IMG/VR virus record: IMGVR_UViG_3300028549_001457
Location: 192,001 to 256,000 of that record
Source of the DNA: a virus
Lineage: Duplodnaviria; Caudoviricetes
DNA length: 64,000 nucleotides
Strand: one strand, 5' to 3'
Below are positions 27,700 through 36,365 of the stretch, one piece after another; the first letter of the stretch is position 1, and the number at the start of each line of letters is the position of its first letter. The notes below the pieces were generated by a model. That model worked only from the letters and a program-made list of their open reading frames with translations, was not told the origin of the DNA and made no database searches. The position numbers and the translations under genes were made by a program.

Positions 27700-28377
27700 A
27701 TGTTAAGAGTGTCTCGCCTGTTTTTAGCTGATTCTAACCCAAGATATAAGTATCCTAGAACGTTTCATATTCCGGGGAGCCCTGGGGCTACCTCAGATGA
27801 TAAAATATTAAGTAGTATGGATCATTTTAAAGGACAAGAGGTCGTAATAACTGAGAAAATGGATGGGGAAAATACAACCATTTACCCTGACTATTTGCAT
27901 TCTCGATCACTAGATAGTAATAACCATCCCTCAAGGAATTGGGTGAAACGACTCCAGAGTGAGATTGGTTATAAGATACCTGATGGAATGCGGATCTGTG
28001 GGGAGAATGTTTTCGCCCAGCATTCACTCGGGTATGATAAGCTTCCCAGTTATTTCTTAGTGTTTAGTGTATGGGAGGGAGATACGTGTTTGTCCTGGGA
28101 TGACACGGTTCTAATTTGCAATGAACTCAATTTAAAAACAGTTCCAATTCTCTATAAAGGACCCTTTGTGGAGGATAACCTAGAGAAGAAATTTTTCTCG
28201 GGGACCTCTTCTTTTGGGGGTGGGCAGGAGGGTTTTGTAGTTAGGTTGGCTAGGGCGTTTAACCGTGCGGAATTCTCAAAAGCACTCGCTAAATGGGTGC
28301 GGCCAAATCATGTCCAAACTGAGACACACTGGACACAACAGCCAATAGTTCCTAATAAGCTAGAAGAGGGGGACTAG
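27700..28377 (+). CDS. ATP-dependent RNA ligase (nucleotidyltransferase domain) with MLRVSRLFLA leader
   Basis: KYPRTFH, ITEKMDGEN (motif I), ICGEN, FLVF, EGFVVR, AKWVR. Confidence 0.88.
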   Translation: MLRVSRLFLADSNPRYKYPRTFHIPGSPGATSDDKILSSMDHFKGQEVVITEKMDGENTTIYPDYLHSRSLDSNNHPSRNWVKRLQSEIGYKIPDGMRICGENVFAQHSLGYDKLPSYFLVFSVWEGDTCLSWDDTVLICNELNLKTVPILYKGPFVEDNLEKKFFSGTSSFGGGQEGFVVRLARAFNRAEFSKALAKWVRPNHVQTETHWTQQPIVPNKLEEGD

Positions 28378-28424: not shown

Positions 28425-31400
28425 ATGTCTTTACTTGCTAATTCACTAAATAAGCGTGTTAAGCGTAATCTGGTTTCAATTTTAGACTTTGCAGAAGCAG
28501 CGTGGGGGCCTCAAATTGAGCTAACCCCGGCACAAAGATTCTCGGTCAAGTTAATTTATAAGATACCCTTGGATGACAAGGCAAAAGTCATCCGAGTATG
28601 GGATAAGTTCAAAGAGAACTTGCTCTACACCCTTACTGAGACTGAATATCGAAAATATTTAAACGAAGAAGTTGGTAGATTAAATCTCACCCATGATATG
28701 GCTCACATAGAGGGTAACTTCAGCACTTTCATTCGCTGTTGGGGCAGGAGGTCGGGCAAAACGTGCCTACATTCCACGCTAATTAATACACACGATAATG
28801 GACTAGTTAAAATAAGTGATCTTTGGCCTCTAGAGGATAAGGTTAAGGATAACTATATGCCTCTAATTTCCCCGACTTTTGTCATGACTGATCGAGGATG
28901 GAAACAGGCTACTGAGATTTACTACGGAGGGGTTAAGAAACTCTTAAAACTGAAGCTAAGCAACGGAATCTCAGTGGAGCCTTCCCCAGAACATAAATTC
29001 AGGACCCTTGATCTTGAAGGGGCCTATGTCTGGAAATTGGCTGGGGATTTCGTGGTGGGGGATACGTTTTGTTTACTGGCTGAAACACCTATAAGTGAAG
29101 CTCCCACTTCTAAGGACACACTAGAATCAGCTCTTTTCCTTGGGATGCTCTATGGGGATGGTTGGTGGGGTGATGAGTATTCCCTGGGTTTATGCAGTCA
29201 TAAATCTGAGTGGGGGTTGGTTAACTTTGTGGATAGTTTTTTAACAACGCATGAACTTTCTCACCGTAAAAGTGTCTACACAACAAATAGCAACGTATGG
29301 GCTTGGACTATCCATGCATCTTCAGGAAGACCCTTCAAAAGGACGTGGGGTCTCACGTCATACCAGGAGAGTCAAAAAAGAGTTTCTGAAAAAATATTGG
29401 CCTTTCCCCCTGAAGCCCGTAAAGCCTTCCTCTCAGGATTGCTTGCAACAGATGGGCATGTAACTAAAGATTTAGGTCATTTTGAAATTACCCTAAAGCC
29501 TAAAGGCCTCATCGAGGATATTCAGCAGTTATTTCTCTCATTAGGTGTGCATTCAACCATCCACCAGAAAGTTGTAAAGCCTAAGCCAGGGAACCAGGGT
29601 GGAACCTATTGGAAACTTACCACGGTAGGCGCAAACACAAATAAGCTTCTGGACATCTTTAAGTATTGCCCACTAAAGCGTAAGACAGAAGAGCTATTGA
29701 CCAAGCAAGCCAAGCATTCTTATAAGTCTTCTTTCGGCGCTTACGACAATCTGCTGCCTAGATTCGAACGTATTTTCTCACAGCATTCCTTCGGCTATCA
29801 CACTGATCGCACCAAGTCATTTAAAATCACCCCTAAGGGCTTCAATGATTACTATGCCTATTATCAAAAATATCTTGAAGTCTATGCTCATGCACATACA
29901 CTGAGTGCTAGTGACCTCCTTCATTTCCAAAAAGCTAATAACCGCAGAACTACAGGGCTTGAGATTGGCAGAGCTATTTCTAAGGCTATTGCTGATTATA
30001 GGAAGGATTCTCAAGACTCTCAGATTGGACAATCACTTCCTTCACCGGAGTTTACTAAAGAACTGGAAGAACTTAAGTGGATTTTTGATACAATAATCCC
30101 GCTTGAGATTGTCTCCATTGAAGAGTCCGAGGGAGAAGTTTACGACTTACATGTTCCTGATGGGAACACCTACCTAGCAAATGGTATAGTTTCTCATAAT
30201 TCTGAGATCACCGCATTGGATATGGCATATGGGATCTACTTACTCCTTGAGAAGTATAACCCCCATGATTATTACCATATGCCACCCAACACCGAAATCT
30301 TTATCCCTGTGCTGGGAACCTCTCAGGATTCATCTAAACGAACTTTCCGCAAAGTTCGCAATATGTTGTCAAGCTCTGGATACTTCACAAACTACTGCAA
30401 CAAAGAAGATCTGCAGGAACTATTCTGTAAAATATACACACCGTTCCAGCGTGAGCAAAATGCACAGTTCCCGTCTATTATTGTTCAAGCGTTCCCTCTA
30501 TCTGAATCCCAGGTTCGTGGCCCTGCATCTTACAGGTCTGTTTGCGATGAGATCGCTCACTGGCCGCATAGGGGTGCGGTATCAGATCTAGAGGTGCTGA
30601 AGGCTATTGAACCTTCGTTAGCCACATTTAAAACTTCAGAAGACTCCCACTCTGAAGCTATGATTTTCCTGATCTCTAACGCGGGGGTGCGCTCGGGCCA
30701 GTTCTTTGAAATGATTGAAAAGGCTAAAAAAGAGGGGGATAATGCATCAGCCATTGTGTATCAGGCACCTACCTGCGAATTAAACCCTACACGAATTAGT
30801 TCTCATGAACTTTTAGCTTACTTCAATAGGTATGGTGACACCGCTTACCGTACCGAGTATCAGTCTGAATTTGTGGATTCGATCTCTCAGTGGCTCTCCA
30901 TGGAAGAGTTAAATGAGATGTTCAATCAATCCAGATCCAATAATACTATTAGACAGAATAACCCCACACTTGCATACCAGTATTTCCCTAAAGCTATCTG
31001 GCCTCAATACTTTTATGGTTTCGACTTGGGGTTGAAGAATGACGCTGCTGCGGTAGCTATTTGCCATTGGGAAACTAATGAGTTGCTGGCAACCCGTAAA
31101 TTGGTCTTTGATTATGTAGATCGTAGAAAAGCTGGAGAAGGCCAGTATGCACATAAGAAAGAGCTAACCGGGGATGATATCGTTGAATGGCTCTACCAGT
31201 TATCTCAAGTATACCCCATTGCAGATGGTGTTTATGACCAATGGTCTGGGACTCTTTTTGGGCAAATGTTAGCCAAAAAGGGCATTAAGGGCCTTAGAAT
31301 GGAATCTTTCACTGAGTCAACCAATTCCCTCGTATACCTATCCTTTCGTGCATTATCATTAAATCAAGAGCTAAATATCCCCACGCTTAACAATAAAGAT

Positions 31401-31718
31401 CTTGAGAACGAAATTCAGCTTCTGCAATGTGAGTTGCGTCCTGGGAATCGAATTAAGGTTGAGGCCCCCCACGGAGACGAATACCACGATGATAGAGCTG
31501 ACGCTATCGCAAGAGCTTGCTGGGTGGCCATGGGCTTCCTAGAGTCACGAGGGTCAGGAAAGGCTCCAGCTCAGCAGGTAACTCGTATGGGGACCGTCTC
31601 GGGTAACCCTGGGTATATGACCGACAGGGGTGCAGTTTCTCGCTACCGAGCAAGTGCCGCTAGTGACCCTAGATCCTTTGCTCGGATGATGGCTATCAAG
31701 CAGAGTAAGAAGAGATAA
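28425..31718 (+). CDS. terL: terminase large subunit containing an intein
   Basis: Walker A GRRSGKT|S interrupted by the intein, Walker B VCDEIAH, C-terminal nuclease GFDLGLKND...DDRADA. Confidence 0.92.
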   Translation: MSLLANSLNKRVKRNLVSILDFAEAAWGPQIELTPAQRFSVKLIYKIPLDDKAKVIRVWDKFKENLLYTLTETEYRKYLNEEVGRLNLTHDMAHIEGNFSTFIRCWGRRSGKTCLHSTLINTHDNGLVKISDLWPLEDKVKDNYMPLISPTFVMTDRGWKQATEIYYGGVKKLLKLKLSNGISVEPSPEHKFRTLDLEGAYVWKLAGDFVVGDTFCLLAETPISEAPTSKDTLESALFLGMLYGDGWWGDEYSLGLCSHKSEWGLVNFVDSFLTTHELSHRKSVYTTNSNVWAWTIHASSGRPFKRTWGLTSYQESQKRVSEKILAFPPEARKAFLSGLLATDGHVTKDLGHFEITLKPKGLIEDIQQLFLSLGVHSTIHQKVVKPKPGNQGGTYWKLTTVGANTNKLLDIFKYCPLKRKTEELLTKQAKHSYKSSFGAYDNLLPRFERIFSQHSFGYHTDRTKSFKITPKGFNDYYAYYQKYLEVYAHAHTLSASDLLHFQKANNRRTTGLEIGRAISKAIADYRKDSQDSQIGQSLPSPEFTKELEELKWIFDTIIPLEIVSIEESEGEVYDLHVPDGNTYLANGIVSHNSEITALDMAYGIYLLLEKYNPHDYYHMPPNTEIFIPVLGTSQDSSKRTFRKVRNMLSSSGYFTNYCNKEDLQELFCKIYTPFQREQNAQFPSIIVQAFPLSESQVRGPASYRSVCDEIAHWPHRGAVSDLEVLKAIEPSLATFKTSEDSHSEAMIFLISNAGVRSGQFFEMIEKAKKEGDNASAIVYQAPTCELNPTRISSHELLAYFNRYGDTAYRTEYQSEFVDSISQWLSMEELNEMFNQSRSNNTIRQNNPTLAYQYFPKAIWPQYFYGFDLGLKNDAAAVAICHWETNELLATRKLVFDYVDRRKAGEGQYAHKKELTGDDIVEWLYQLSQVYPIADGVYDQWSGTLFGQMLAKKGIKGLRMESFTESTNSLVYLSFRALSLNQELNIPTLNNKDLENEIQLLQCELRPGNRIKVEAPHGDEYHDDRADAIARACWVAMGFLESRGSGKAPAQQVTRMGTVSGNPGYMTDRGAVSRYRASAASDPRSFARMMAIKQSKKR
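28764..30200 (+). mobile_element. 479-aa intein with LAGLIDADG homing endonuclease, in terL
   Basis: C1 after GKT, block B SPEH, LGMLYGDG and FLSGLLATDG motifs, VYDLHV...VSHN|S. Confidence 0.93.
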
Positions 31719-31720
31719 TC

Positions 31721-32218
31721 ATGGCGAACTGTGTGGCTGGGGGCACGTATATCATAACAGAGTCAGGATTCCATAAATTGAAGGATCTTTGGCCAGAGGA
31801 ACTTCCGCTTATTCCTGACACACTCCACACATTTCCCAAGCCTGTTAAAATAGCGACTGATTTGGGGCCTGGGGACGCTACCGAAATGTACTATGGAGGT
31901 CCCAGAAAAGTTCTTGTTATAAGCTTTTCAAGTGGGATAACTCTGTCCATGACGCCAGAGCACATCCTGAAAGTACCTTCTATTACAGAGGACCTCCATG
32001 AGGTTGCTGTCTGGAAGTATGGGTGTGACTTAAGGGAGGGCGATCAGGTTTACTGGGTTGGGTTGTATGATCTTAGCCAGGAAAATACTGATGAAATGTA
32101 TCTTGTTGACCATACTTCAATTGTATCTATTTCAGATGGCCTAGAGGATGTTTACGACATTAGAGTCCCAATAATTTGCACATATATAACCAATGGGGTT
32201 GTCTCTCATAACAGCTAA
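31721..32218 (+). CDS. free-standing mini-intein (Hint domain) flanked only by MAN and S
   Basis: MAN|CVAGGT...TPEH...VYDIRV...VVSHN|S*; clear paralog of the terL intein splicing domain. Confidence 0.88.
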   Translation: MANCVAGGTYIITESGFHKLKDLWPEELPLIPDTLHTFPKPVKIATDLGPGDATEMYYGGPRKVLVISFSSGITLSMTPEHILKVPSITEDLHEVAVWKYGCDLREGDQVYWVGLYDLSQENTDEMYLVDHTSIVSISDGLEDVYDIRVPIICTYITNGVVSHNS

Positions 32219-32268
32219 CCCCCAAAGTCACTTTAATTGGACTCTGATATATTTTAGAGGTAGCATAC

Positions 32269-34965
32269 ATGACAAAGAAAAAAGTTGCCGCAGCAAAGCC
32301 CACAAGTATCCCAGCTTCATTTAGTGGGAGTTCTGTGACTACCTCCGTTTCTCTAGGTGTCCCTAAGTATTCTCAATCCATGTCTTCTGTGGAGAGAATG
32401 GATAATCTGCGTCAGATGCGTAGCCAAAAAACAGCCTCGTCCCACACGGCTCTTTTTGGGGTTGGTGGTGGTATGGGTGGGGCTACTGGATCTCTCAATC
32501 CTTCAAATTACACTAACCCTTATACCCATAACTTCCCGGTAGATATTCTTGAACGTCCGCAAAGTAGGCAGGAGCAGATCGAGTGGAACGTCAGATGGTA
32601 CCGTGAGAACCCCATTGTTAGGCGGGTAATTGATCTTCATTCTCAGCTACCGCTGTCTAAAATGACTATCACAAAACCTGCTTCGTCTTCACAGGCATTT
32701 AGCAATTATGTCCATAAATTCTTCTTGGACATGGCTAAGAATATGAAGCTGATACCTAAATTGAGAAGCAACCTGGGGAAGGCATATTGGCTTCATGGGG
32801 ATGATTTCATCTTCCTAGAAGACCAGAAATTAGACCCTAATGCTACGAATGATAGTGAGTATCAAACAGTTCCAAGTGAATACGATAACCAAGCTAGAAC
32901 AAACTTCTTTGACGTCCACCGGCATATACATACGTCATCCCAAAAAGATTGGGACGTCAAATACGCGAAAATGCTAGCAAATCCCCTGTTTGCACTGGTC
33001 CCCCAATTGCGAGAGCAGGCCCTTCAGGGGTCAACCCCTCGTCCCTCGGGGCCTTTCTTAGATGAGTGTGAATTTAAAGATGTTTTTGGTAATGACGCAA
33101 ACTCGTTTCTACAAGTAATCCATACACTTAAAAATGCGGCTTACGAGTTGAAGAAATTTGCTGATACCATTAATGGTAAGCGTAAAGCGGATATTTCTCG
33201 TCTAAATCCCTTGGTGCTTGCTAAGTTAGGTCCTGAGTTTTTATCGTATAAACATCACAGTGCGTATGTAGCCTACAAAAGTGGATCTGTTAAGACTGCA
33301 GAAGTTAAGGTTGCGGCTGAGGATTCTGAGGGTCCCAATGATGTAGATATGGCACTTGATCCATCCAAACGTCCGGTGTTTAAGCTCATCGGGTTGGACC
33401 CCATTAATGTCCAGAATATCCCAAGAAATGAACGCTCTGTTAGCCCCACGCCAAACCTTGATTTTCAGAAGTTCTTGCAGGATAACCCGACTATTCAGAA
33501 GGCGCTTTCGGAGCTACCTAATCCAAATGAGCCCGTTCAAATCAATAAAACTGAGGAGGATGTCAGTGTAATGGTGTATGGACCCGATGGGGTTACGCCG
33601 TTGCGAGAGGATGATACTTTTGCGAAAACCCCAGAGGAAGATTCAGACATGGGTATGGGGGATATAGCCGACTTAGACATGGGGCCACTCCCAGATGACA
33701 TTATGGCCTCCCCCGAAAATGACCCTGAATATATTGAAAATCTTGAAATCTATAATAAAAACTTAGTTCGCAAGAAGGAGCTTCTTGAAAAACTAATAGA
33801 TGAATTAACGTCTAAAGCAACCGACTATAGATGCTTTGCTAATATTAAATATCCTAAATATAAGGGTTGGCAAGCTATGCGGTCCTTGCCTCCCCATCAA
33901 ATTGAGGTGGCAAGAAAATCCAATTCAGATGTTAAAGAAATATTTTATATCCCATCTGAAGAAGAAGCCGCAACTATCCAAGCCAATTTTGATGATTTAT
34001 CTGAGGAGGCTCAAGGCTACTGGAAGGCTAAAAAGCGGCTGTTGTTATCGTCTGAAACATCAAATGAGCCCAGTCTAACCAATAAGGACCTTCCCGCAGA
34101 CGGGTCTTACTGTGTCCAAGTATCTAACGCCCGTTCTGACTTTGAGTTGTATGGGCATGGATTAGTAGAGCCCTGTTTACGTGACTTGATTCACGATGAT
34201 AAAATTGGGCAGGTAAAGAGCCAAACTTTCGCTAGGAATATGCAGCCTAAGAGACTCGTGGTGGCGGAGGGAGTCGATGACGCTACGTTGGCCAAACTAC
34301 AGGATATGGTGGATGCTTCCACGGTAGACCCAGACGTCTCTATTATTACTAATTATCCAGTTACTTGGCAAGAAATGGGTGTTGGAGACCGCATTCAGAG
34401 TTTTGAAGGTGAGTATTCTCATATTCTTACCAATTTAACTGCTGGATTAGCGTTCTTCCAGGAGTTTATTACTGGACAGATCTCCTATGGTGGGTCTAAG
34501 ACTCCACAGGAAATCATGAACACTATGTATTTAGCCTTCAGAGAAGACATTTCATTTTTTATCCAGGAGTGCATCTTTAGACCTGTTGCAGAACGTAAAG
34601 GTTTTTATGATGTGGATGAATTTGGGCAGAAAATCCTTATATACCCAAATATATCATTCTCCAGATTGGCTATCCGTGATGCCGGTGATACCTATGACAT
34701 GCTAATAAATCTCTACCTTAAGGGTTCCGTATCTATTTCTAGAATTTATGAGATCCTGAATATTGATGAAGAAGAGGAAACCCAGAAACTTGAGGATGAA
34801 CTCTTTACTATTAAGGACCCCAAATTCACAGAGCTTCTTGCGGGTATCTACCAGAATGTTGCACAGACCCTCGTTGAACGAACTAACATAACTGAAATGT
34901 TAGCCAAGAATATGGGTTTGACATATGAAGAACCCTCAGATGATGGTGGAGGCCCTCCTCTATAA
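32269..34965 (+). CDS. portal protein with large central insertion
   Basis: follows terL; ENPIVRRVIDLH..LPLS, YW..GD.F, YGHGLV, terminal helical region typical of jumbo-phage portals. Confidence 0.72.
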   Translation: MTKKKVAAAKPTSIPASFSGSSVTTSVSLGVPKYSQSMSSVERMDNLRQMRSQKTASSHTALFGVGGGMGGATGSLNPSNYTNPYTHNFPVDILERPQSRQEQIEWNVRWYRENPIVRRVIDLHSQLPLSKMTITKPASSSQAFSNYVHKFFLDMAKNMKLIPKLRSNLGKAYWLHGDDFIFLEDQKLDPNATNDSEYQTVPSEYDNQARTNFFDVHRHIHTSSQKDWDVKYAKMLANPLFALVPQLREQALQGSTPRPSGPFLDECEFKDVFGNDANSFLQVIHTLKNAAYELKKFADTINGKRKADISRLNPLVLAKLGPEFLSYKHHSAYVAYKSGSVKTAEVKVAAEDSEGPNDVDMALDPSKRPVFKLIGLDPINVQNIPRNERSVSPTPNLDFQKFLQDNPTIQKALSELPNPNEPVQINKTEEDVSVMVYGPDGVTPLREDDTFAKTPEEDSDMGMGDIADLDMGPLPDDIMASPENDPEYIENLEIYNKNLVRKKELLEKLIDELTSKATDYRCFANIKYPKYKGWQAMRSLPPHQIEVARKSNSDVKEIFYIPSEEEAATIQANFDDLSEEAQGYWKAKKRLLLSSETSNEPSLTNKDLPADGSYCVQVSNARSDFELYGHGLVEPCLRDLIHDDKIGQVKSQTFARNMQPKRLVVAEGVDDATLAKLQDMVDASTVDPDVSIITNYPVTWQEMGVGDRIQSFEGEYSHILTNLTAGLAFFQEFITGQISYGGSKTPQEIMNTMYLAFREDISFFIQECIFRPVAERKGFYDVDEFGQKILIYPNISFSRLAIRDAGDTYDMLINLYLKGSVSISRIYEILNIDEEEETQKLEDELFTIKDPKFTELLAGIYQNVAQTLVERTNITEMLAKNMGLTYEEPSDDGGGPPL

Positions 34966-36365
34966 TGACCAAGTCTTGCCTTGATCTATTAAGGGATAAT
35001 TTTGAGACCCTCCGTAAGGGTGGGACCATCCCACTTGAGGGTCTTTCACCTGAGTGTAGTGAATTTGTCTCTATGCTAAATGATCTCGCAAAACCTTGGG
35101 ATTCTGAGCGTAAAAGACTAGCTAAAGATCGTCTTTTTATTAGCAGTATCCTGGATTCAATCCCCCAGGGGGTGTTTTGGAAGGACACAGATAGTGTGTT
35201 CCTGGGGTGCAACCGCCCTTTCGCGGATATGAATAAACTATCTATGGATAAAGTTATAGGAAAAACTGACTACGAACTGGTGGATAGTAGTTTAGCGCTA
35301 CACTTCAGATCAGAGGATCTTGAGGTGTTGACAACTTTGAAAAGAGTCTACTCCTTGAGTCCACCCTCGGATAGTAAACAACGCTACACACTTACCACAA
35401 AATGTCCTTTAATAGTTAATGATGTTCCTACTGGAGTTATCGGAGTTTCAGAAGATATCACGGATAGAAAAATTGCGGAGCTTCAGCTCAGCTTAAGTGA
35501 GGTTAAGTTTAGAACGCTAACAGAATCTCTAACTGACATTGTATGGATGATGGACCAATCTTTTAATATGTCTTATGTAAACCCTGCTGTGACTAGGTAT
35601 ACCGGGTTTACCGTGGATGAGATTTTAAAGCTACCTTTAGAAAAACGATACGCCCCTGGAACGGTTAAAACTATCCAAAAACGCCTTCGCTTTTTAGATG
35701 ACCCTACGTATATAGGGGACTCAGTAGAGGCAGAGGTCTACCGTAAGGATGGGTCTACGATTTGGATGCTGACTAGATATACTGTGCTGAGGGGTGCTAA
35801 GGGGGAGGTATTTGGGTTTGTCGGCGTGTCTACAGATATCACTGCTCAGAAGAAAAAAGAGTCTATCCTCACGGATTTTGCAACTCTGGATGGGCTTACT
35901 GGTGTGATTAACCGTAGATATTTTATGGAACGGTTGAATGATGAGATGGATCGAGCTTTTAAATATAAAATACCTCTATCCGTGGCTATGCTAGACATAG
36001 ATTACTTCAAGAAAATTAATGATACATATGGGCACCCAGCCGGGGACTCAGCTCTGCTCCAATTTGTGGGTGTCATTCAGGGGTGTCTACGCCAATCAGA
36101 TTTCCTAGGTAGATTGGGAGGTGAGGAGTTTGCAGTGGTTCTTCAGGGAACTTCTGTAGATGCCACAAAGATTCTCGTGGAGAGAATTAGACAATCTGTG
36201 TCTGAAACAGTTGTTTCACATGGGGCACTTTCGTTTAACATGACTGTCTCATCCGGTATTACTGGATTAAAAATGACTGATACGGCAGAGGCTATTATGG
36301 CTCGGGTAGATCAGGCCCTTTACGATGCTAAGGGATCCGGGCGAAATTGCTACCGAGTTATTTGA
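34965..36365 (+). CDS. PAS-PAS-GGDEF diguanylate cyclase
   Basis: two PAS/PAC domains, DGLTGVINRR, LDIDYFKKINDTYGHPAGD, I-site RQSD, GGEEF; TAATG overlap with the portal stop. Confidence 0.95.
   Translation: MTKSCLDLLRDNFETLRKGGTIPLEGLSPECSEFVSMLNDLAKPWDSERKRLAKDRLFISSILDSIPQGVFWKDTDSVFLGCNRPFADMNKLSMDKVIGKTDYELVDSSLALHFRSEDLEVLTTLKRVYSLSPPSDSKQRYTLTTKCPLIVNDVPTGVIGVSEDITDRKIAELQLSLSEVKFRTLTESLTDIVWMMDQSFNMSYVNPAVTRYTGFTVDEILKLPLEKRYAPGTVKTIQKRLRFLDDPTYIGDSVEAEVYRKDGSTIWMLTRYTVLRGAKGEVFGFVGVSTDITAQKKKESILTDFATLDGLTGVINRRYFMERLNDEMDRAFKYKIPLSVAMLDIDYFKKINDTYGHPAGDSALLQFVGVIQGCLRQSDFLGRLGGEEFAVVLQGTSVDATKILVERIRQSVSETVVSHGALSFNMTVSSGITGLKMTDTAEAIMARVDQALYDAKGSGRNCYRVI

What the first reader, a model, noticed from the sequence alone, without database searches (positions are those of the whole stretch)
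31721..32218. Free-standing mini-intein gene with essentially no exteins (MAN|C...HN|S*), paralog of the terminase intein
Seen: 2 nt after the terL stop is a 165-aa ORF that is a complete Hint domain. C1, block-B TPEH, block-F Asp and terminal HN-S are all intact, flanked by only 3 N-terminal and 1 C-terminal residues. It aligns segment by segment with the splicing halves of the terL intein (DLWP, TD.G...ATE.YYGG, VWK..D...GD, IVSI...VYD..VP...TY..NG.VSHNS) but has lost the LAGLIDADG core. Known: inteins normally interrupt a host protein. Inference: keeping the catalytic residues without a host suggests a function, such as a trans-acting splicing helper or inhibitor of the TerL intein, a redox/metal sink, or a thioester-activated tag for ligation to other proteins. 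A recent duplication relic is the alternative.
Basis: partly seen in the sequence, partly recalled or inferred. Interest (0 to 1): 0.78.

Follow-up and report, generated by a model that had tools for sequence, protein, structure and literature searches.

The report
Free-standing intein gene kept by selection
Between the DNA-packaging enzyme gene and the portal gene of an uncultured 279-kb phage lies a small gene that encodes only a complete self-splicing protein element (a mini-intein) with no host protein around it. Selection has kept it intact in the phage's closest known relative, so it probably does something on its own.

Summary
Window 31721-32218 (+) is a 165-aa ORF, MAN|C...TPEH...VYD...SHN|S-stop, starting 2 nt after the terL stop. 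It lies in a different frame from terL and portal, and two public contig sets match it with no indels.

It models confidently as a HINT fold (pLDDT 89), and its best structural matches are all inteins. It keeps all 20 positions that are conserved in 75 related inteins.

One other free-standing copy is known (169 aa, 48% identical). It sits at the same terL-solo-portal-GGDEF position in the phage's closest relative (TerL 90%, portal 81% identical). Seven more distant lineages lack the gene, and six of those join terL directly to portal.

Synonymous sites between the two phages are saturated, yet the solo protein has pN 0.33 (dN/dS at most about 0.18, Fisher p 8e-13). It is therefore a maintained gene, not a decaying duplicate.

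"Paralog of the TerL intein" is only partly supported. The two share a P-loop-intein clade (about 38% identity) but are not resolved as sisters.

Function is untested. A stretch shared only by the two solo copies (W112-T132) sits where a homing endonuclease would normally be inserted and may be a new interaction surface.

No paper describing such a gene was found. This scan has recorded similar free-standing inteins on other DNA.

The parts
28425..31718 (+). terL (large terminase, 1097 aa) interrupted in its Walker A loop by an intein
   Evidence: The C-extein and an intein-less relative match the PHROG 'terminase large subunit' families phrog_2 and phrog_9. Pfam finds Intein_splicing, LAGLIDADG_3 and Hom_end.
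28761..30200 (+). TerL intein, Thr113 to Asn592 (480 aa), with a LAGLIDADG homing endonuclease. Its splicing halves are about 38% identical to the solo gene.
   Evidence: Intein-less relatives read GRRSGK|SEITALD, which sets the boundaries.
31716..31723 (+). Junction TAA-TC-ATG: terL stop and solo start 2 nt apart, with a purine-rich AAGAAGAGA just upstream. Probable translational coupling.
   Evidence: Sequence. No promoter-like or terminator-like site lies between terL and portal. Coupling is inferred.
31721..32218 (+). Free-standing mini-intein gene (165 aa plus stop): MAN | Cys4...Asn164 | Ser165
   Evidence: AF2 model has pLDDT 89.4 and pTM 0.84. The Foldseek top 29 are inteins, then Hedgehog and BIL Hint domains, all at prob 1.0. 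dN/dS is at most 0.18 against the L007 homolog.
31730..31732 (+). Codon of Cys4, intein position 1 (block A nucleophile)
   Evidence: Cys in 95% of related inteins and in both solo copies.
31952..31963 (+). Block B T78-P-E-H81
   Evidence: Thr 87% and His 100% in the family. Both are kept in both solo copies.
32054..32116 (+). Solo-specific conserved stretch W112-VGLYDLS...DHT132, at the place where related inteins carry the homing endonuclease or a variable linker
   Evidence: 14 of 20 residues are identical in 101-120, the best-conserved 20-residue block. These residues are rare or absent in 75 other inteins. Codons differ at synonymous sites between window and L007, so the conservation is at the protein level. 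AF2 confidence is lower here (block means 74 and 57).
32156..32158 (+). Codon of Asp146 (block F)
   Evidence: Asp in 100% of the family and in both solo copies.
32207..32218 (+). Block G His163-Asn164, then the +1 Ser165, then TAA
   Evidence: Of 92 related inteins, 91 end in HN. Only the L007 solo ends in YN.
32269..34965 (+). Portal gene (898 aa) with its own AGAGG ribosome-binding site, 50 nt after the solo stop
   Evidence: Matches phrog_16240 'portal protein', E 2.7e-10. Its N-terminus MTKKK... aligns with the portal starts of relatives that lack the solo gene.

Best explanation
This is a separately translated, selectively maintained gene for a class-1 mini-intein (Hint domain) that has no host protein: a domesticated, or at least retained, solitary intein.

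Shown:
- It is an independent ORF in the late terL-portal gene block.
- It has a HINT fold and the full catalytic set.
- It entered this junction in, or before, the common ancestor of the window phage and its closest known relative.
- Since then it has evolved under purifying selection on the protein. The constraint is roughly as strong as on the neighbouring PAS-GGDEF accessory gene and much weaker than on terL or portal.

Inferred mechanism:
- It is co-transcribed with terL and portal and translated by coupling to the terL stop.
- It folds like an ordinary intein and probably processes its own tiny termini: an N-S shift at Asn3-Cys4 and cyclisation of Asn164. That would release a 161-residue free Hint domain and a trivial peptide.
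- The selected product is the Hint domain itself, not the spliced 'exteins', because these are not conserved (MAN/S versus MDGLSYT/SLDLGVC).
- The stretch W112-T132, shared only by the two solo copies and lying where a homing endonuclease is normally inserted, is the best candidate for a newly acquired interaction surface.
- The partner is unknown. From gene position alone, the packaging proteins or the TerL precursor are the first candidates.
For: - ORF, frames and stops. Identical contigs in two runs.
- Fold: AF2 pLDDT 89.4. The Foldseek top 29 are inteins such as Mxe GyrA, Ssp DnaB and TvoVMA (TM 0.7-0.8), then Hedgehog and BIL Hint domains, all at prob 1.0. A PDB profile search also hits the DnaB, RadA and GyrA inteins.
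- Catalytic set: all 20 family-conserved columns are kept.
- Homolog: P0011 (169 aa, 48% identical) has the same terL-solo-portal-PAS/GGDEF order on L007 and L008.
- Relatedness: L007 is the closest relative, with TerL C-terminus 90% and portal 81% identical.
- Selection: pS is 0.72-0.85 in all four genes (saturated), while solo pN is 0.325 and dN is 0.43. Fisher test of synonymous against nonsynonymous differences gives p 8e-13. A random 165-codon frame of this composition stays open with p about 4e-5.
- Residence: GC and GC3 equal those of the neighbours, so the gene is not a recent import.
- Neighbours intact: terL C-termini and portal N-termini are complete and alignable in relatives with and without the solo gene, so it was not carved out of either.
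- Transcription: no promoter or terminator signal between the genes.
- Solo-specific motif with differing synonymous codons.
Against: - Only two sequences of the family are known: one representative hit among 1.84 billion clusters, singleton clusters, and no further copies in four collection scans. Site-wise tests of selection on the catalytic residues are therefore impossible.
- The L007 copy has lost three family-conserved residues, including the penultimate His (H163Y) that 91 of 92 relatives keep. C-terminal chemistry may therefore not be what is selected.
- The gene is absent from seven more distant related lineages, so it is dispensable for this phage type.
- dS is saturated, so dN/dS is only an upper-bound estimate.
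- No expression, splicing or binding data exist.
- The Pfam Intein_splicing score (21 bits) is below the curated cut-off of 35.8. Family assignment rests on pairwise hits, profile hits and fold.
Confidence: 0.62

Rival explanations
1. Trans-acting modulator of TerL maturation. The free Hint domain would bind the homologous TerL intein or precursor, or domain-swap with it. It would then help, delay or divert splicing of the terminase, tuning when packaging starts.
For: - It lies directly after terL and is probably co-expressed with it.
- It belongs to the same P-loop-intein clade as the TerL intein and is about 38% identical in both splicing halves.
- The TerL intein is unusual: it starts with Thr instead of Cys or Ser.
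- From my own knowledge, not checked here: related mini-inteins can domain-swap.
Against: - L009-L012 and L013 carry the orthologous Thr1 TerL intein (splicing halves 62-89% identical) with terL abutting portal and no solo gene there. The TerL intein therefore does not need a solo partner. Those contigs are partial, so a copy elsewhere in the genome cannot be excluded.
- No precedent was found in the literature searches.
- At 38% identity, cross-reaction between inteins is not expected as a rule (my own knowledge, not tested here).
Confidence: 0.1
2. Burnt-out selfish element. On this reading it is a remnant of a free-standing intein-endonuclease cassette that homed next to terL, as WHO elements home next to FBA1 in yeast. 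It later lost its endonuclease and now gives the phage no benefit.
For: - Patchy presence at a junction between two conserved genes. The same junction holds a different insert (672-aa DUF7487) in L016.
- Its relatives are endonuclease-bearing P-loop inteins.
- WHO/HO are a precedent for intein-derived genes beside, not inside, their target (PMC7282813).
- This may well describe the origin of the gene.
Against: - Both copies lack the endonuclease, and the sequence across the gap is conserved (WVGLYDLS). Any loss therefore predates their split.
- Since that split, synonymous sites have saturated while the protein stayed constrained and the frame stayed open.
- A functionless free-standing ORF can be removed by any deletion, unlike an embedded intein.
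Confidence: 0.15
3. Chemistry-based role. The N-terminal thioester, or the N-terminal Cys exposed after self-cleavage, would be used to tag, ligate to or trap another protein, or to make a small peptide.
For: - Cys1, T-x-x-H, the block F Asp, the terminal Asn and the +1 Ser are kept in both copies despite 52% overall divergence.
- The +1 Ser is kept even though it is the last residue in the window copy.
Against: - The would-be spliced peptides are unrelated (MAN-S versus MDGLSYT-SLDLGVC).
- The penultimate His is lost in L007.
- Two sequences cannot separate conservation of catalytic residues from conservation of the fold core.
- No acceptor is known.
Confidence: 0.1
4. Not an independent gene. 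On this reading an assembly error, programmed frameshift or stop-codon read-through joins it to terL or portal, so it would be an ordinary embedded or terminal intein.
For: - In L007, terL, the solo gene and portal happen to lie in one frame separated only by TAG and TAA. A run of seven A precedes the terL stop.
Against: - In the window the three genes are in three different frames with no slippery heptamer at the junction.
- Contigs of two runs agree with no indels.
- terL C-termini and portal N-termini are complete and match relatives that lack the insert.
- All large ORFs of the window are open in the standard code, so there is no sign of stop-codon recoding.
Confidence: 0.03

Closest known systems
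Class-1 mini-inteins embedded in P-loop NTPases and other replication proteins of phages and bacteria (TerL, DnaB, PIF1 helicase, RNR). Solved examples: Ssp DnaB mini-intein (1mi8), Pho RadA intein (2lqm/4e2t), Mxe GyrA intein (1am2).
   Same: Same fold, the same blocks A, B, F and G with all catalytic residues, and the same size. The nearest clade holds the TerL inteins of this phage group plus a DnaB and a PIF1 P-loop intein.
   Different: It interrupts no protein. The exteins are 3 and 1 residues (7 and 7 in L007) and are not conserved. The usual reason for keeping splicing residues, rescuing an essential host protein, is therefore absent. It also carries a solo-specific conserved stretch at the endonuclease insertion site.
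The TerL intein of the same phage (window 28761-30200)
   Same: Adjacent gene and the same wider clade. About 38% identical in both splicing halves, with shared motifs DLWP, ATE.YYGG, VWK, IVSI...VYD...NG.VSHN|S.
   Different: The TerL intein carries a LAGLIDADG endonuclease, starts with Thr rather than Cys, and is embedded in the Walker A loop. It is not resolved as the solo's sister. The embedded TerL intein is also the slower evolver: its splicing halves are 62-89% identical at 84% extein identity. The solo is 48% identical at 90% TerL identity.
HO endonuclease and WHO elements of yeasts (Coughlan et al. 2020, PMC7282813)
   Same: Intein-derived genes that stand alone instead of interrupting a protein. 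WHO genes lie just downstream of the gene they target, as the solo lies just downstream of terL.
   Different: HO and WHO keep the LAGLIDADG endonuclease and a zinc finger, and they act on DNA. The solo has no endonuclease domain, so it cannot work that way now.
Bacterial intein-like (BIL) and pretoxin-HINT domains; Hedgehog/Hog autoprocessing domains
   Same: Hint-fold autoprocessing modules used for something other than classical splicing. Hedgehog (1at0, 6tyy) and a BIL2 domain (6y75) appear among the weaker fold matches.
   Different: Those domains are parts of larger proteins whose N- or C-terminal cargo they release or modify. The solo has no cargo. By sequence it groups with true inteins, and Pfam gives no PT-HINT or Hint-module hit.

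Membership tests
Intein (class 1, mini-intein) | HINT fold | tested here: met
   AF2 model has pLDDT 89.4 and pTM 0.84 and is all-beta. The Foldseek top 29 hits are inteins, then Hedgehog and BIL Hint domains, at prob 1.0 and TM 0.7-0.8 for the best.
Intein (class 1, mini-intein) | Block A nucleophile at position 1 (Cys or Ser) | tested here: met
   Cys4 aligns with Cys1 of 95% of 75 related inteins. It is also Cys in the L007 copy.
Intein (class 1, mini-intein) | Block B T-x-x-H and block F Asp | tested here: met
   T78-P-E-H81 and D146 are present. The same holds in L007 (TPDH, D).
Intein (class 1, mini-intein) | Block G His-Asn followed by a +1 Cys, Ser or Thr | tested here: met
   H163-N164|S165 in the window. 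The L007 copy has Y-N|S, so it lacks the penultimate His that 91 of 92 relatives keep.
Intein (class 1, mini-intein) | Inserted in frame within a host protein (exteins) that it restores by splicing | tested here: not met
   Stops lie 4 codons upstream of the ATG and directly after Ser165. terL and portal are in other frames and have complete termini. No indel appears in two contig sets.
Intein (class 1, mini-intein) | Protein splicing or cleavage activity | not testable with these tools
   Needs expression and mass spectrometry.
Intein (class 1, mini-intein) | Match to Pfam Intein_splicing (PF14890) above the curated cut-off | tested here: not met
   21 bits against a cut-off of 35.8. Homology rests instead on 122 phmmer hits at E up to 1e-3 (the 124 listed, less the query itself and the other solo copy). 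The ones examined are intein-bearing proteins. A profile search also hits solved inteins.
Homing-endonuclease intein / HO-WHO type free-standing intein endonuclease | LAGLIDADG (or HNH) endonuclease domain between the splicing halves | tested here: not met
   No LAGLIDADG or Hom_end hit in the solo, whereas TerL has both. Only about 20 residues lie at the insertion site.
Split intein / 'fractured gene' half or bridge | Only an N-half or a C-half of the Hint domain, each fused to an extein (or a C-half followed by an N-half) | tested here: not met
   Blocks A, B, F and G are contiguous and in the normal order in one ORF. The genome scan with PF14890 finds only complete inteins.
BIL / pretoxin-HINT / Hedgehog-type Hint domains | Hint domain attached to an N- or C-terminal cargo domain, with family-specific profiles (PT-HINT PF07591, Hint PF01079) | tested here: not met
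   No cargo. No PF07591 or PF01079 hit at E up to 0.01. These appear only as weaker fold matches.

The most novel reading that the evidence does not exclude
A phage has recruited an extein-less intein as a working protein of its late (packaging) programme. On this reading the free Hint domain uses its retained splice-site chemistry and the new W112-T132 loop to act on another protein. The most interesting candidate is the intein-interrupted terminase precursor, which would make terminase maturation controllable in trans. More broadly, free-standing inteins kept by selection next to genes that host their relatives would be an undescribed class of domesticated Hint proteins.
Probability: 0.12. 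Interest if true: 0.85.

Novelty: new variant of a known kind. Interest (0 to 1): 0.6.

Why it matters
Inteins are taught as parasites that survive only because destroying their splicing would destroy the essential protein they interrupt. Here a complete intein has nothing to rescue. It could be lost by any deletion. Yet it has stayed open and constrained over a divergence long enough to randomise silent sites. That implies the Hint domain itself gives a benefit.

If the benefit can be identified, it would be a bacterial-virus counterpart to the domestication of HO in yeast. It could also reveal a natural trans-acting use of intein chemistry. The protein is small (165 aa) and easy to express, so the question can be tested directly.

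The adjacent TerL intein, which starts with Thr in three lineages, is a second testable oddity for the splicing field.

Tried and rejected
- Complex prediction of the solo with TerL residues 100-610 gave no verdict (score 0.00, below the mark). It says nothing either way.
- Searches for further family members all came back empty:
  - The word-indexed search with the protein found only itself.
  - A profile search limited to similar lengths found only fragments of DnaB and RNR inteins on tiny contigs, and it missed even P0011, so its sensitivity is low.
  - Scans with the two-sequence alignment found nothing in JGI metagenomes or IMG/VR.
  - A back-translated GD.V[YF]WVGLYDL pattern found nothing in either collection. 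The first attempt had too few fixed bases.
  - Both 90% clusters are singletons.
- The portal protein found no relatives in IMG/VR with single-sequence patterns. Megablast of 8 kb against GenBank phages found nothing.
- The one IMG/VR hit to the solo (L006, 43% over 36 residues) covers only the generic block F/G and was not pursued.
- No RNA holder is listed among the sequencing runs, so expression could not be examined. Runs X3 and X6 hold only short pieces of the region.
- Literature searches for 'free-standing intein', 'stand-alone intein', 'orphan intein', 'extein-less' and similar terms returned no paper. Searches combining intein, Hint domain and free-standing returned only papers on free-standing endonucleases.
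- PHROGs has no family for the window protein.
- Rejected: a -1 frameshift from terL into the solo frame. There is no slippery heptamer in the 9 nt available, and the frame relations differ in L007.
The blocks are in the normal order.
- Rejected: the ORF kept open only for translational coupling to portal. This would not constrain the amino-acid sequence.

Full report
**What is there.** The window is part of a 278,785-bp IMG/VR virus record that is about 95% complete and has 45.5% GC. It is a jumbo phage from microbial-mat metagenomes.

The region reads, all on the + strand:
- a 239-aa ORF
- an RNA ligase
- terL (28425-31718)
- the 165-aa ORF (31721-32218)
- portal (32269-34965)
- a PAS-PAS-GGDEF gene (34965-36365)

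TerL is confirmed by PHROG terminase families on its C-extein and on an intein-less relative. Portal is confirmed by phrog_16240.

It reads ATG GCG AAC TGT..., that is MAN|C, and starts 2 nt after the terL TAA. It ends ...GVVSHN|S followed by TAA. In its own frame a TAA lies four codons before the ATG. terL, the ORF and portal occupy three different frames.

**Is the frame real?** Logan contigs of two runs from different studies are letter-identical over 30800-33200, with no inserted or missing bases. They are one 27-kb contig, and three contigs that bridge both gene junctions. These runs may be the source samples, so this checks the assembly only.

All large ORFs of the window are open under the standard code. 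There is therefore no hint of stop-codon recoding. The terL C-terminus (...KQSKKR) and the portal N-terminus (MTKKK...) align with those of relatives in which the two genes abut. The ORF was not carved out of either neighbour.

**Is it an intein?** The Pfam Intein_splicing hit is weak: 21 bits against a cut-off of 35.8. The other evidence is stronger:
- phmmer against 1.84 billion cluster representatives finds 124 proteins at E up to 1e-3. Apart from the query itself and one 169-aa protein, these are long proteins matched in two stretches, as expected for an intein with an endonuclease insert. The seven best checked with Pfam are ribonucleotide reductase, DnaB, DNA polymerase A and PIF1 helicase proteins with inteins, plus one with intein domains only.
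- A profile of the two solo proteins hits the solved Ssp DnaB, Pho RadA and Mxe GyrA inteins.
- AlphaFold2 with a 12-sequence alignment gives pLDDT 89.4 and pTM 0.84, an all-beta model.
- The Foldseek top 29 PDB matches are inteins, followed by Hedgehog and BIL Hint domains, all at prob 1.0. TM is 0.7-0.8 for the best.
- Against 75 related inteins, the window protein keeps every one of the 20 columns that are at least 75% conserved. These include Cys1, T-x-x-H, the block F Asp and the terminal His-Asn.

It therefore has everything that defines a class-1 mini-intein except the thing an intein is defined by, a host protein.

**Relation to the TerL intein.** BLASTP gives 38% identity over the N-terminal splicing half (E 7e-14) and 38% over the C-terminal half (E 2e-8). 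There is no match to the LAGLIDADG part.

In a maximum-likelihood tree of 77 splicing domains the two solo proteins pair (SH-aLRT 91). They sit in a clade (SH-aLRT 81) with the three TerL inteins of this phage group, a DnaB intein and a PIF1-helicase intein. The DnaB and PIF1 inteins end where their host domains' Pfam profile matches resume near position 32-33, which is consistent with a P-loop insertion site. The solo pair is not resolved as sister to the TerL inteins. 'Paralog of the TerL intein' is therefore plausible but not demonstrated.

The genome holds two further, unrelated inteins. One is in an RNA-ligase-like ORF and one is in a metallophosphoesterase-like ORF.

**Relatives.** One other free-standing copy exists, P0011 (169 aa, 48% identical), reading MDGLSYT|C...SYN|SLDLGVC. 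It lies on a 7.8-kb ENA contig (L007) and a 1.9-kb Logan contig (L008). The order there is the same: terL, solo, portal, PAS/GGDEF.

L007 is the closest known relative of the window phage, with the TerL C-terminal 370 aa 90% identical and portal 81% identical. More distant lineages look like this:
- L009-L012: TerL C-extein 84% identical to the window. terL carries the intein. terL and portal are 3 nt apart.
- L013: TerL 71-72% identical, the same arrangement.
- The P0004 contig, L014, L015 and L017: intein-less terL abutting portal.
- L016: a different gene (672 aa, DUF7487) sits at this junction.

The simplest history is a single insertion of the solo gene at the terL-portal junction in, or before, the common ancestor of the window and L007 phages. 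That junction evidently accepts accessory genes.

**Selection.** Between the window and L007, synonymous sites are saturated in all four shared genes (pS 0.72-0.85; Nei-Gojobori). The solo gene has pN 0.325 (dN 0.43), which gives dN/dS of at most about 0.18. This is the same constraint as on the PAS-GGDEF gene (dN 0.45). It is weaker than on terL (0.08) or portal (0.13).
- The excess of synonymous over nonsynonymous change is significant (Fisher p 8e-13).
- A random frame of 165 codons with this composition would stay open with probability about 4e-5.
- GC and GC3 match the neighbours.

It also rules out an ORF kept open merely for translational coupling.

The constraint is looser than on an embedded intein. 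The TerL intein's splicing halves are 62-89% identical between the window and L009 at 84% extein identity. The solo is 48% identical at 90% TerL identity.

**What is conserved.** Both copies keep Cys1, T-x-x-H, the block F Asp, the terminal Asn and the +1 Ser. The flanking 'extein' residues are unrelated apart from that Ser. A spliced peptide therefore cannot be the selected product.

The L007 copy departs from the family consensus at G72D, W98C and H163Y. H163 is the penultimate His, which 91 of 92 relatives keep.

The best-conserved part of the protein is 101-120, with 14 of 20 residues identical. It contains W112-VGLYDLS-119, followed by E121, L128 and D130-H-T132. These residues are rare or absent in other inteins. 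They lie exactly where related inteins carry the endonuclease or a variable linker. The codons differ at synonymous positions, so it is the amino acids that are conserved. I read this as a candidate new interaction surface. That reading is inference.

**How it most likely works.**
- Shown: it is an independent, constrained gene for a complete Hint domain in the late packaging gene block.
- Inferred: it is co-transcribed with terL and portal, because no promoter or terminator signal lies between them. It is translated by coupling to the terL stop (TAA-TC-ATG here, TAG-GTGTTT-ATG in L007). It self-processes its minute termini and then acts as a free Hint domain through the solo-specific loop.
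- Not known: the target.

Relatives with the orthologous TerL intein have no solo gene at this position. A complex prediction gave no verdict and counts neither way.

A WHO/HO-like origin is an attractive origin story. In that scenario an intein-endonuclease gene homed beside terL rather than into it and later lost its endonuclease (PMC7282813). It cannot explain the continued constraint, because both copies already lack the endonuclease.

**Novelty.**
- Full-text searches for free-standing, stand-alone, orphan or extein-less inteins returned nothing.
- A recent review lists only full-length, mini and split configurations (PMC7765530).
- Earlier follow-ups in this scan describe free-standing inteins under selection on other DNA: beside nrdJ, beside a phage CHAP hydrolase, in Binatia, and in another jumbo phage. 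These are unchecked AI notes, but they suggest the kind recurs.
- The ESM Atlas holds clusters of 141-220-aa, mostly viral 'intein splicing domain' proteins. These may include more such genes. I could not retrieve them.

I class this as a new variant of a known kind. It is a real and unusual gene, supported by only two sequences, and its function is untested.

**Side observation.** Intein-less TerL relatives read GRRSGK|SEITALD. The TerL insert is therefore Thr113-Asn592. The first residue is Thr in all three intein-bearing lineages: TCLHSTLINT, TIGKDCLINT and TLSKSTIINT. The second residue is Cys, Ile or Leu. Counted from the Thr, block A aligns without a gap to the canonical C-[LIV]-x-x-[DGS]-[TS]-x-[IV] pattern.

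Tori et al. (PMC2807308) state that Thr1 had not been observed in natural inteins up to then, although an S1T mutant splices. The class-3 WCT triplet is absent: by eye from the sequence, the corresponding positions are F, D and S.

Noticed in passing
window 28761-28790 (TerL residues 113-122); L009 and L013 terL: The TerL intein begins with Thr, not Cys. Intein-less relatives read GRRSGK|SEITALD, and the insert starts TCLHST (window), TIGKDC (L009) and TLSKST (L013). Thr1 is conserved in three lineages, while position 2 is Cys, Ile or Leu. A 2010 paper (PMC2807308) says Thr1 had not been seen in natural inteins. There is no class-3 WCT triplet.
   Followed up: partly
G000:C1:262366-263484 (L001) and G000:C1:12640-14790 (L005), outside the window: Two more inteins in the same phage genome. 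One is a mini-intein (CLASEV...LVHN|S) in a 373-aa RNA-ligase-like ORF (KIDGTN motif). The other is a LAGLIDADG intein (CFPAGS...GVHN|S) in a 717-aa metallophosphoesterase-like ORF. Neither is close to the solo gene.
   Followed up: partly
L016:6829-8847: In a more distant relative the same terL-portal junction holds a different insert, a 672-aa DUF7487 protein. A second DUF7487 gene follows the portal. The junction seems to be a hot spot for accessory genes.
   Followed up: no
L007:1111-1632: In the closest relative, terL, the solo intein and portal all lie in one reading frame, separated only by TAG (+6 nt) and TAA (+0 nt). A run of seven A precedes the terL stop. This is probably chance (1 in 9), since the window has three different frames.
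   Followed up: partly
window 27700-28377: An RNA ligase gene (Pfam RNA_ligase, E 5e-35) sits between the 239-aa ORF and terL. In the relatives with gene tables (L009, L013, L014, L015, L017, the P0004 contig) a 204-242-aa ORF directly precedes terL, with no ligase between; in L016 it is a 146-aa ORF. The genome has a second, intein-interrupted RNA-ligase-like gene (L001).
   Followed up: no
window 34965-36365; L007:4348-5721; L013:14072-15475: The PAS-PAS-GGDEF gene directly after portal is shared by the window, L007 and L013 but is missing in L009-L012. It evolves fast (40-49% identity) while staying intact.
   Followed up: no
window 29100-30090 (TerL intein endonuclease part): The LAGLIDADG region of the TerL intein is 67-69% identical between lineages whose exteins are 72-84% identical. 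The endonuclease looks maintained rather than decaying. Intein-plus and intein-minus terL alleles coexist in this phage group.
   Followed up: partly
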